Shown here: piece by piece, positions 15,157 to 15,717 of the stretch | Numbering within the stretch: the first letter of the stretch is position 1 | Layout: every line of letters begins with the position of its first letter | Origin: a virus | Direction: 5' to 3' (one strand) | Virus record (IMG/VR): IMGVR_UViG_3300036857_000203 | Location: 8,436 to 72,435 of that record | DNA: 64,000 bases | The notes under the pieces: model-generated | What the model saw: the letters and a program-made list of their open reading frames with translations, nothing else | Told to the model about the DNA's origin: nothing | The model's database searches: none | Translations under genes and position numbers: made by a program

Positions 15157-15717
15157 AAGCCTGCCAAGCCCGGCCAGGACTGAACGCACCAAGCCAAGCC
15201 CGGCCCTGCCTTGCCTCGCCTCGCCAAGCCCTAGCTAGCCGGGCCAGGACTGCCACGCCAAGCCAAGCCCTGTCAGGTCCTGGCGTGCCGTGCCTTGCCG
15301 TGCCGTGCCTGCCGGGCCAAGCCGTGCCTGTCCGAGGCCTGCCGCGTCTTGCCGGGCCTAGCCCTGCCGGGCCTGCCGCGACATGCCGCGTCTTGTCAGG
15401 TCGGGACATGCCGGGCCATACCGCGCCCGCCTTGCCTCAACTGCCGCGACATGCCGAGCCTGGACCTGCCATGTCCAGCCGTCCGAGCCGGGCCAATGCC
15501 ACGCCTGCCGAGCCAAGCCAGCGTCGGGCCAAGGCATGCCGTGACATGTCATCCACGTAGATGACGTGCCTGCCATGCCCCGCCTTGCCGCGCACCGCCG
15601 GGCCGAGCCTCGCCGGGCCAAGCCCCGCCGCACCGGGCCTGCCGGGCCGCGCCATGCCGAGCCACGTCCCACCGGGACGCGCCACGCCAAGCCGCGCCGA
15701 GCCTGCGTTACCGTGCC
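15157..15717 (-). ncRNA. GGY-NN pentamer array, 8 units (putative guide-RNA array)
   Basis: About 100 pentamers; 4-nt phase breaks (GGCA on minus strand) at plus positions 15162, 15251, 15310, 15374, 15442, 15506, 15571, 15640 and 15704 (variant); directly downstream of the RAMP-like operon. Confidence 0.85.

What the first reader, a model, noticed from the sequence alone, without database searches (positions are those of the whole stretch)
15571..15639. Second unit spells the terminase small-subunit motif FxPGxSGNPxG, which this phage's own terS has lost
Seen: NN series at cc tt gc cc gg ga tc gg aa cc gc gg gives I/M-P-F/L-A-P-G-D/E-S-G-N/K-P-A-G. Knowledge: FxPGxSGNPxG is the DUF5681-type motif at the N-terminus of many putative terS proteins. 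The resident terS reads GQWRPGYSGTMGT (28281-28319; only 4/13 dinucleotides match). Inference: the guide targets packaging genes of competing phages while self is immune by divergence.
Basis: partly seen in the sequence, partly recalled or inferred. Interest (0 to 1): 0.9.

Follow-up and report, generated by a model that had tools for sequence, protein, structure and literature searches.

The report
VIPR guide aimed at DUF5681 genes
This 69-base stretch is one guide RNA unit of a phage-borne VIPR system, a recently described CRISPR-like system that reads two of every three DNA bases; it appears aimed at a conserved motif of DUF5681 genes in other genetic elements, so it is a new example of a known system.

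Summary
Window 15571-15639 is TGCC plus 13 pentamers NN-GCC. Its NN series reads [IM]-P-[FL]-A-P-G-[DE]-S-G-[NK]-P-A-G when taken as codon positions 1-2.

This is not chance. Of 593 array units from 83 sources, only this one fits the DUF5681 motif. It fits at 8 of 8 fixed positions, and 200 shuffles never exceeded 6 of 8.

The stretch belongs to a VIPR system, first described in 2026 bioRxiv preprints:
- a RAMP/Cas7-fold Vipr gene at 16253-17071, minus strand;
- a partner gene at 15726-16256, minus strand;
- a roughly 530-nt GGY/NN array that recognises DNA by skipping every third base.

An exact scan with 11 of the 13 codons found 11 places. Eight lie in codon phase at the N-terminal motif of DUF5681-type ORFs, seven of them above Pfam's cut-off. 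These eight match 11-12 of 13 NN.

The phage's own DUF5681-related ORF (28185-28643) matches only 4 of 13.

The "terS" label is weak. The own ORF is not next to terL. Only 1 of 5 target contexts has terL beside it, and two border metabolic genes. IMG/VR gave no exact hit.

Verdict: a new member of a known kind. The scan had already noted this same stretch in another window.

The parts
15571..15639 (-). vrRNA unit 2 of the array, the unit in the finding. It has 13 GGY-NN repeats on the minus strand and ends in the 4-nt step GGCA. The NN series specifies [IM]PFAPG[DE]SG[NK]PAG codons.
   Evidence: parse; motif unique among 593 units; in-phase DUF5681 matches
15640..15703 (-). vrRNA unit 1, with 12 NN. 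It decodes to G-A-[IM]-[DE]-T-P-G-A-T-[NK]-A-[DE], a variant of a conserved block of the Vipr protein itself.
   Evidence: 20 of 24 nt with own gene at 16774-16739, above all 60 shuffles; 11 of 12 residues compatible with 3 of 120 homologues; own gene 9 of 12
15181..15707 (-). The whole period-5 GGY/NN array of about 8 units. Units are separated by 4-nt register steps, giving a staggered layout without long tails.
15527..15583 (-). A strong RNA hairpin directly 3' of unit 2 on the minus-strand transcript. It splits the array into units 1-2 and units 3-8.
   Evidence: -31.8 kcal/mol, z -3.8, 0 of 200 shuffles fold as well; no Rfam family
15726..16256 (-). 176-aa partner gene in the vap position. 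It has no Pfam or PHROG hit.
   Evidence: weak similarity to Saal gp52 (E 2e-5)
16253..17071 (-). 272-aa Vipr-like RAMP protein.
   Evidence: AlphaFold2 model with pLDDT 83.4; Foldseek best hits are Csm3/Cas7/Cmr6 subunits, 40 chains at E <= 0.001; phrog_4652 of unknown function; glycine-rich invariant block G182-G200
28185..28643 (+). The phage's own DUF5681-related ORF (152 aa). The motif site 28281-28319 reads GQWRPGYSGTMGT and is not matched by unit 2 (4 of 13 NN).
33786..35974 (+). Context: an HTH ORF (33786-34253) directly before the large terminase (34106-35974). This is the usual terS position, and the DUF5681-like ORF does not occupy it.

Best explanation
Window 15571-15639 encodes, on the minus strand, the second vrRNA of a VIPR (Viral Interference Programmable Repeat) system carried by this 72-kb soil-type phage.

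Inferred from the preprints, not tested on this phage: copies of the Vipr RAMP protein (16253-17071) line up along the RNA. Each copy holds one GGY triplet and presents the next two bases. The 13 presented dinucleotides pair with DNA while every third target base is skipped, so the guide reads codon positions 1-2 and ignores wobble positions.

Shown here: unit 2's dinucleotides specify the coding strand of the conserved N-terminal motif (R)P-F-A-P-G-E-S-G-N-P-A-G of DUF5681-family genes. Such genes exist in metagenomic and chromosomal contigs. The phage's own DUF5681-related gene is too diverged at that site to be matched.

Inferred: binding near the 5' end of the target gene silences it in a competing mobile element.
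For: System:
- The RAMP fold of the 272-aa protein is supported.
- The partner gene is conserved. The gene pair plus array recurs in 58 of 80 IMG/VR loci that encode a relative, including low-GC phages that use GGT or GGA.
- In 237 of 246 array regions the xCC reading lies on the locus minus strand, so GGx-NN is on the strand of the vipr gene. Five of the other nine are in G000, L002 and L003, where the gene itself is on the minus strand.
- Unit length peaks at 9-12 NN, within the 9-16 repeats reported.

Skip rule, tested independently here:
- Unit 1 matches its own vipr gene at 20 of 24 nt only with a 1-nt gap. That is above all 60 shuffles; gaps of 0 and 2 give null values.
- A unit in L035 matches L077 at 20 of 20 nt. 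All 10 skipped bases fall on wobble positions of DVRALVDHDT in a 189-aa ORF.
- 4.9% of 566 units have z > 3 against the proteins of their own locus, with top z of 6-11.
- Exact 7-NN words: 27 hits at gap 1, against 14.2 +/- 3.8 for shuffled words.

Unit 2:
- The motif fit is unique among 593 units.
- The 11-codon scan gave 11 hits, and 8 lie in phase in DUF5681-type ORFs. Seven of these 8 are above the PF18932 cut-off. Five match 12 of 13 NN and three match 11 of 13, and their wobble bases vary.
- The best match in the own genome is 18 of 26 nt, which equals the shuffle level. The own ORF matches 4 of 13.

Literature: the 1-nt skip, wobble alignment, targeting of either strand, the 80% NN criterion and the absence of self-targets are all reported.
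Against: - The full 13-codon pattern has no exact match in viral, metagenome or genome contigs. The 11-codon core has none in IMG/VR. A perfectly matching target was therefore not found, and no target is shown to be viral apart from L109, where terL is adjacent.
- Three of the 11 core hits are unrelated ORFs (L105, L113, L114).
- The motif is very common in DUF5681 genes, so finding some genes with these x-positions is not surprising in itself.
- No other unit among 593 aims at this motif.
- In my 3-Mb local set, matches at 80% NN or better did not favour the 1-nt gap: 8 of 458 units at gap 1 against 10 at gap 0. At 70% or better the counts were 155 at gap 1 against 104-117 for the other gaps.
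- Expression, processing and binding of this RNA are untested.
Confidence: 0.78

Rival explanations
1. Unit 2 is a working vrRNA, but its real target is not a packaging gene of a competing phage. DUF5681 genes in chromosomal, satellite-like or other integrated elements would be the targets, and DUF5681 need not be a terminase small subunit at all.
For: L104 and L106 targets lie beside HMG-CoA reductase and class-III aminotransferase genes. L108 comes from a 528-kb contig. PHROGs labels the matching families 'unknown function'. There is no exact hit in IMG/VR. The one paper found that mentions DUF5681 lists it only as a family protein detected in a phage proteome (passages read). Published VIPR targets are mostly satellites and resident prophages.
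Against: In L109 the target ORF sits directly before, and overlaps, a large terminase gene (phrog_7579 at E 1e-59, Terminase_6N). Prophage ends also border chromosomal genes, so the L104 and L106 contexts do not exclude prophages.
Confidence: 0.35
2. The resemblance is chance. Unit 2 is a guide (or a decayed one) with some other target or none, and the DUF5681 reading is pattern-seeking.
For: The motif was chosen after reading the sequence. No exact 13-codon target was found anywhere. Three of 11 core hits are unrelated. The first dinucleotide never matches in the DUF5681 hits.
Against: All 8 fixed positions match, and this was never reached in 200 shuffles of 593 units. Eight in-phase hits fall at the same motif of one family, against three scattered hits elsewhere. 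The phage carries a diverged member of a DUF5681-related family, which mirrors unit 1 and the vipr gene.
Confidence: 0.05
3. The array is a structural or regulatory DNA repeat (protein-binding iterons, G-rich structure, terminator region) that carries no sequence information. This was my own first reading.
For: It lies between convergent genes and has a strict 5-bp period. A strong hairpin lies inside it.
Against: Units decode to protein-like text that matches real ORFs in wobble phase. The array is linked to a RAMP-fold protein in 58 of 80 loci. Published experiments show vrRNAs and programmable targeting.
Confidence: 0.02

Closest known systems
VIPR systems (Vipr RAMP protein + vap + GGY/NN vrRNAs), bioRxiv 10.64898/2026.04.26.720920. 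I read the Results, one Methods section and found passages. For the companion preprints 10.64898/2026.04.26.720927 and 10.64898/2026.10.15.759431 I read the abstracts and outlines, plus one section of the latter.
   Same: A two-gene locus in a phage. A RAMP-fold protein. Arrays of 9-16 pentamers with constant GGY and variable NN on the gene strand. A 1-nt skip that falls on wobble positions. Targets on either strand. No self-target at 80% NN or above. One unit aimed at relatives' vipr alleles. Possible solo units elsewhere in the genome.
   Different: The characterised type II systems (SUSP1, P. fulva) have a conserved 3' tail of about 40 nt after each repeat tract. Here the units abut with 4-nt register steps, which resembles the 'staggered arrays' named in a figure legend that I could read only as text. 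tblastn against 50,697 phage records finds no Escherichia phage (6 records: 5 Gordonia, 1 cyanophage), so the protein is a distant branch. The preprint's main text never mentions terminase (0 occurrences), so a DUF5681 target would be a further target class.
Class 1 CRISPR effector backbones (Cas7/Csm3 filaments on crRNA)
   Same: The best structural matches of the 272-aa protein are Csm3, type VII Cas7 and Cmr6. The logic of a protein filament on a guide RNA that interrupts pairing periodically is shared.
   Different: There is no repeat-spacer array, no cas1/cas2 and no nuclease gene in the locus. The guide period is 5 nt with only 2 pairing bases, and the target period is 3 nt. TM-scores are modest (0.29-0.43 on the query) and sequence identity is 9-14%.
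Pfam PF18932 (DUF5681), the proposed target family
   Same: Seven of the 8 in-phase target ORFs pass the curated cut-off, and the eighth scores 25.8 against 27.5 bits. Nine of 21 homologues of the phage's own ORF match at E <= 1, best 1.4e-4.
   Different: The own ORF itself gives no match. The family has no established function. Its common annotation as terminase small subunit is my recollection, not a tool result.

Membership tests
VIPR system | Vipr protein with a RAMP fold (RRM core, glycine-rich loop, thumb) | tested here: met
   AlphaFold2 on 34 sequences gave pLDDT 83.4 and pTM 0.78. Foldseek against PDB gave 40 chains at E <= 0.001, and all those listed are Csm3, Cas7 or Cmr6 subunits or the complexes that hold them. 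The block G182/G186/G188/D189/R191/G195/G200 is invariant. I did not map the thumb or G-loop residue by residue.
VIPR system | A minimal locus with an adjacent accessory (vap) gene | tested here: met
   A 176-aa ORF at 15726-16256 overlaps the vipr stop. A weakly similar partner follows the Saal homologue (E 2e-5). Its fold and DNA-binding nature were not tested.
VIPR system | vrRNA made of 9-16 tandem YNNGG/GGY-NN repeats on the gene strand | tested here: met
   Unit 2 has 13 repeats, 11 of them with an exact GGC. Unit lengths peak at 9-12 NN over 593 units. In 237 of 246 array regions GGx-NN is on the strand of the vipr gene.
VIPR system | Targets follow the 1-nt skip rule, with the skip on the wobble position | tested here: met
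   unit 1; gaps of 0 and 2 fail; 20 of 20 nt, 10 of 10 wobble skips; own-locus protein matches; unit 2 in phase. The local cross-locus count at 80% NN or better was not discriminating.
VIPR system | No self-target at 80% NN match or above | tested here: met
   Unit 2's best match in its own genome is 18 of 26 nt, and its own ORF matches 4 of 13 NN. Unit 1 matches its own gene at 9 of 12 NN, or 75%.
VIPR system | vrRNA is expressed, processed and bound by Vipr | not testable with these tools
   No RNA run is listed for this DNA.
VIPR system | Conserved structured 3' tail after the repeat tract (type II) | tested here: not met
   Units abut with 4-nt steps. There is only one hairpin, 3' of unit 2, and no Rfam or hammerhead match. 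The preprint says other types lack this layout, so this speaks against type II and not against VIPR.
DUF5681 (PF18932), own ORF 28185-28643 | Score above Pfam's gathering cut-off | tested here: not met
   No match in hmmscan at E <= 0.01 or E <= 1, and none in the six-frame genome search at E <= 10. Nine of 21 homologues match weakly.
Terminase small subunit (own ORF and targets) | Gene directly upstream of terL, or a family annotated as terS | tested here: inconclusive
   The own ORF is 5.5 kb from terL, and another ORF holds that position. Among the targets, terL is adjacent in L109 only (1 of 5 distinct contexts). PHROG families are 'unknown function'.

The most novel reading that the evidence does not exclude
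VIPR guides may often be aimed at allelic variants of gene families that the carrier phage itself owns, with the phage's own copy escaping through changes at codon positions 1-2. In this phage, unit 1 fits relatives' vipr alleles at 11 of 12 residues and its own at 9 of 12. Unit 2 fits canonical DUF5681 alleles at 12 of 13 NN and its own at 4 of 13. Across 566 units, about 5% resemble a protein of their own locus without matching it. That would make kin-directed exclusion, with a signature of escape in the carrier's own genes, a general feature. It would also add DUF5681 genes as a target class, and staggered-array VIPRs in soil phages and Cluster F mycobacteriophages as its carriers.
Probability: 0.4. 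Interest if true: 0.5.

Novelty: new member of a known kind. Interest (0 to 1): 0.3.

Why it matters
The tools confirm that reading, but the system has been in print since April 2026, so the locus is an added example and not a discovery.

The added value is modest but real:
- It is a distant Vipr branch with a tail-less, staggered array.
- It offers a candidate natural target family (DUF5681) that the main text of the discovery preprint does not mention.
- It gives a replicated computational signal that guides resemble, but do not match, the carrier's own proteins. That bears on how such guides arise and how self-targeting is avoided.
- Homologous modules in culturable Cluster F mycobacteriophages offer a tractable laboratory model.

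Tried and rejected
My first reading was a structural or regulatory repeat (text). I dropped it.

Searches and tests that gave nothing or did not discriminate:
- Exact scans of the full 13-codon unit 2 pattern gave 0 hits in viral, metagenome and genome contigs. The 11-codon core gave 0 in viral contigs.
- The 11-codon core of unit 1 gave 0 in viral contigs.
- Among 20 IMG/VR loci of the own ORF's family, the best unit 2 match was only 21 of 26 nt. Among 118 proteins of that family, the best was 9 of 13 compatible residues. The close family is therefore not the target.
- In the local 3-Mb set, counts at 80% NN or better did not separate the skip rules. The overall mean best-match fractions were also nearly equal (0.772 against 0.762-0.768).
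- ORFs of the 11 target loci share no tblastn similarity with this genome at 1e-4, so the targets are not close relatives of this phage.
- Rfam gave no family in 14900-17400 at E <= 1.
- No RNA holder is listed for the locus.
- Units 3-7 gave nothing above shuffles in the own genome. Unit 8 reached 19 of 28 nt opposite the helicase gene, and about 3% of the 60 shuffles (frac>=obs 0.03) reached that value.
- Supplements of the VIPR preprints (data S3/S4, tables S2-S3) are closed. They may already list this clade, its type or DUF5681 targets.

Full report
**What is there.** Window 15150-15730 is non-coding DNA with a strict 5-base period. It lies between the end of a helicase operon on the plus strand (13377-15032, with a small ORF reaching 15183) and two minus-strand genes (176 aa at 15726-16256; 272 aa at 16253-17071). 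A dynamic-programming parse splits it into about eight units. Each unit starts on the plus strand with a 4-base step TGCC and continues with 11-14 steps of NN+GCC. The stretch in the finding, 15571-15639, is TGCC plus 13 such steps. In the 72,435-bp virus record that holds the window, the same periodicity occurs at only two other short places, about 6540-6640 and 25100-25170.

**A conserved module, not a stray repeat.** A blastn search of 13000-18000 against 50,697 phage records hit 27 records. All were Cheoctovirus (Cluster F) mycobacteriophages, and all matched only on the array.
- In phage Saal the array lies beside gp51 and gp52. The window's 272-aa protein is 30% identical to gp51 (E 2e-13), and the 176-aa protein is weakly similar to gp52 (E 2e-5).
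- The 272-aa protein has at least 201 relatives at E <= 0.001. None of the 120 listed carries a Pfam domain or an informative name.
- A profile of 34 of them (A1) found 545 encoding stretches in IMG/VR, of which 80 loci were kept. A strict detector found period-5 arrays in 58 of these 80. In low-GC phages the constant triplet is GGT or GGA.
- With a looser detector, 237 of 246 array regions have the xCC reading on the locus minus strand, so GGx-NN is on the strand of the gene. Five of the other nine are in G000, L002 and L003, where the gene is on the minus strand.
- Re-parsing gave 593 in-register units, with lengths peaking at 9-12 NN and near-even use of all 16 dinucleotides.

**The gapped code is real.**
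- I scanned each unit's NN series against the phage's own genome with the arrays masked. Unit 1 (15640-15703) matches 20 of 24 nt inside the 272-aa gene (16774-16739, AAVDTPGATRAE), but only when one base is skipped between dinucleotides. That is above all 60 shuffles of the NN order, and gaps of 0 and 2 give null values.
- At protein level unit 1 fits relatives better than its own gene: AAIDTPGATKAE or VAIDTPGATKAE in 3 of 120 homologues gives 11 of 12, against 9 of 12 for the own gene.
- A unit in L035 matches L077 at 20 of 20 nt. All ten skipped bases fall on wobble positions of DVRALVDHDT in a 189-aa ORF that looks like a prohead protease; that label is my recollection. I estimated the chance expectation at about 5e-4.
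- I decoded 566 units and compared each with the six-frame translation of its own locus. Of these, 4.9% had z > 3 and 10.8% had z > 2 against 30 shuffles, with top z of 6-11. All these matches are similar but not identical to peptides in long ORFs.
- Exact 7-NN words hit 27 times at gap 1, against 14.2 +/- 3.8 for shuffled words and 9-14 at other gaps.
- Results against this reading: mean best-match fractions barely differ between gaps. Counts at 80% NN or better in my 3-Mb set do not favour gap 1: 8 of 458 against 10, 3 and 4. At 70% or better the counts are 155 against 104-117.

[quoted passage not shown] I read its Results, one Methods section and some found passages. It reports:
- VIPR systems comprising a Vipr RAMP protein, a vap gene, and vrRNAs of 9-16 YNNGG repeats;
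- a 1-nt skip rule whose skip falls on wobble positions;
- targets on both strands and transcriptional silencing of competing mobile elements;
- seven types, including 'staggered arrays';
- an 80% NN criterion for natural targets, and no self-targets.

Two companion preprints describe the filament and triplex mechanism (abstract only) and solo vrRNAs and vipr-targeting guides (abstract and one section). A search for 'VIPR' plus 'vrRNA' found 6 papers, of which 4 were listed.

The 272-aa protein fits this description. Its AlphaFold2 model (pLDDT 83.4) has Csm3, Cas7 and Cmr6 subunits as its best PDB matches, with 40 chains at E <= 0.001. It is a distant branch: tblastn finds only 5 Gordonia phages and 1 cyanophage among isolates. 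The array lacks the 3' tails of the characterised type II systems. The only structured element is a hairpin 3' of unit 2, and there is no Rfam match.

**Unit 2 and DUF5681.**
- Among 593 units in both orientations, only unit 2 fits the fixed positions of F-x-P-G-x-S-G-N-P-x-G at 5 of 8 or better, and it scores 8 of 8. Two hundred shuffles never passed 6 of 8.
- Exact scans with all 13 codons found nothing in IMG/VR, metagenome contigs or genome contigs. The 11-codon core found nothing in IMG/VR, 9 places in metagenome contigs and 2 in genome contigs.
- Eight of these 11 places lie in codon phase at (G/R)(R/P)FAPGESGNPAGRPKG... near the start of 131-292-aa ORFs. Seven of the 8 pass Pfam's cut-off for PF18932 and the eighth scores 25.8 against 27.5 bits.
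- Five of the 8 match 12 of 13 NN and three match 11 of 13. Their wobble bases differ from each other. L108, L111 and L112 are one gene, and L104 and L110 are close, so there are about five distinct genes.
- The other three hits (L105, a redoxin-type ORF; L113; L114) are unrelated and give a feel for the background.

**The phage's own gene.** ORF 28185-28643 reads ...NGQWRPGYSGTMGTDAARARR....
- It has no Pfam or PHROG hit, and PF18932 is not found anywhere in the genome in six frames.
- It has 117 relatives. Some read NGRFAPGYSGNPGG, and 9 of 21 aligned relatives match PF18932 (best E 1.4e-4). It is therefore a diverged member of a DUF5681-related family.
- Unit 2 shares 4 of 13 NN with it.
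- Its close family is not the target: the best is 9 of 13 compatible residues among 118 proteins and 21 of 26 nt among 20 IMG/VR loci.

**Is it terS?** The evidence is weak.
- terL is at 34106-35974 (phrog_38 at E 1.8e-80), with an HTH ORF directly before it. The DUF5681-like ORF lies 5.5 kb away, beyond a block of minus-strand genes.
- Among the target contexts, only L109 has a terL fragment directly downstream (phrog_7579 at E 1e-59, Terminase_6N). L104 and L106 have HMG-CoA reductase and class-III aminotransferase genes downstream. L108 and L112 have nothing recognisable.
- PHROGs calls the matching families 'unknown function'.
- The only paper in the library that mentions DUF5681 lists it as a protein found in a Salmonella phage proteome (passages read).

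**Verdict.** The 'terS of competing phages sharing the host' part is not shown. The system itself is known, so this is a new member of a known kind. The scan had already noted this same stretch in another window.

Noticed in passing
window 6540-6640 and 25100-25170: Two short stand-alone period-5 arrays lie outside the main locus. The first reads NN-GCC on the plus strand, just downstream of the ERF recombinase gene (6641-7777, minus strand). The second reads GGC-NN on the plus strand, between two minus-strand genes. They look like the 'solo vrRNAs' of the second VIPR preprint.
   Followed up: partly
L003 (Mycobacterium phage Saal) 1295-2750; L002 (Donkeykong) 2500-2850: Cluster F (Cheoctovirus) mycobacteriophages carry the same module: a GGC-NN array of 250-340 bp directly upstream of gp51 (Vipr-like, 30% identity to the window protein) and gp52. 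All are annotated as hypothetical. In Donkeykong a 'gene 48' is called across the array. The main text of the VIPR preprint has 0 occurrences of 'Mycobacter'.
   Followed up: partly
window 15640-15703 versus 16739-16774: Unit 1 decodes to a conserved block of the Vipr protein. It fits three relatives' alleles (11 of 12 residues) better than the phage's own (9 of 12 NN, or 75%, just under the 80% rule). This suggests a guide against rival VIPR systems.
   Followed up: partly
window 15527-15583 (minus strand): A strong RNA hairpin (-31.8 kcal/mol, z -3.8) lies directly 3' of unit 2 and divides the array into two units and six units. It has no Rfam match. It could be a processing or termination element.
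   Followed up: partly
L035 (locus + strand near 5364) and L077 968-997: One vrRNA unit of an IMG/VR phage matches at 20 of 20 NN bases, with every skip on a wobble base, the DVRALVDHDT site of a prohead-protease-like ORF in another VIPR-bearing contig. The protease label rests on my reading of the sequence and not on a family search.
   Followed up: partly
L021/L022/L023, L043, L025/L046, L058, L064, L013: Many units decode to peptides that are similar but not identical to proteins of their own locus (for example 10 of 14 NN in L021, z 11). The decoded sense text is mostly on the GGx (gene) strand.
   Followed up: partly
window 23053-24693 and 13377-15032: An AAA+ ATPase (546 aa, minus strand) and a ResIII/DEAD helicase (551 aa, plus strand) flank the region. 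Unit 8 of the array reaches 19 of 28 nt opposite the helicase gene, a value that about 3% of the 60 shuffles (frac>=obs 0.03) also reached.
   Followed up: partly
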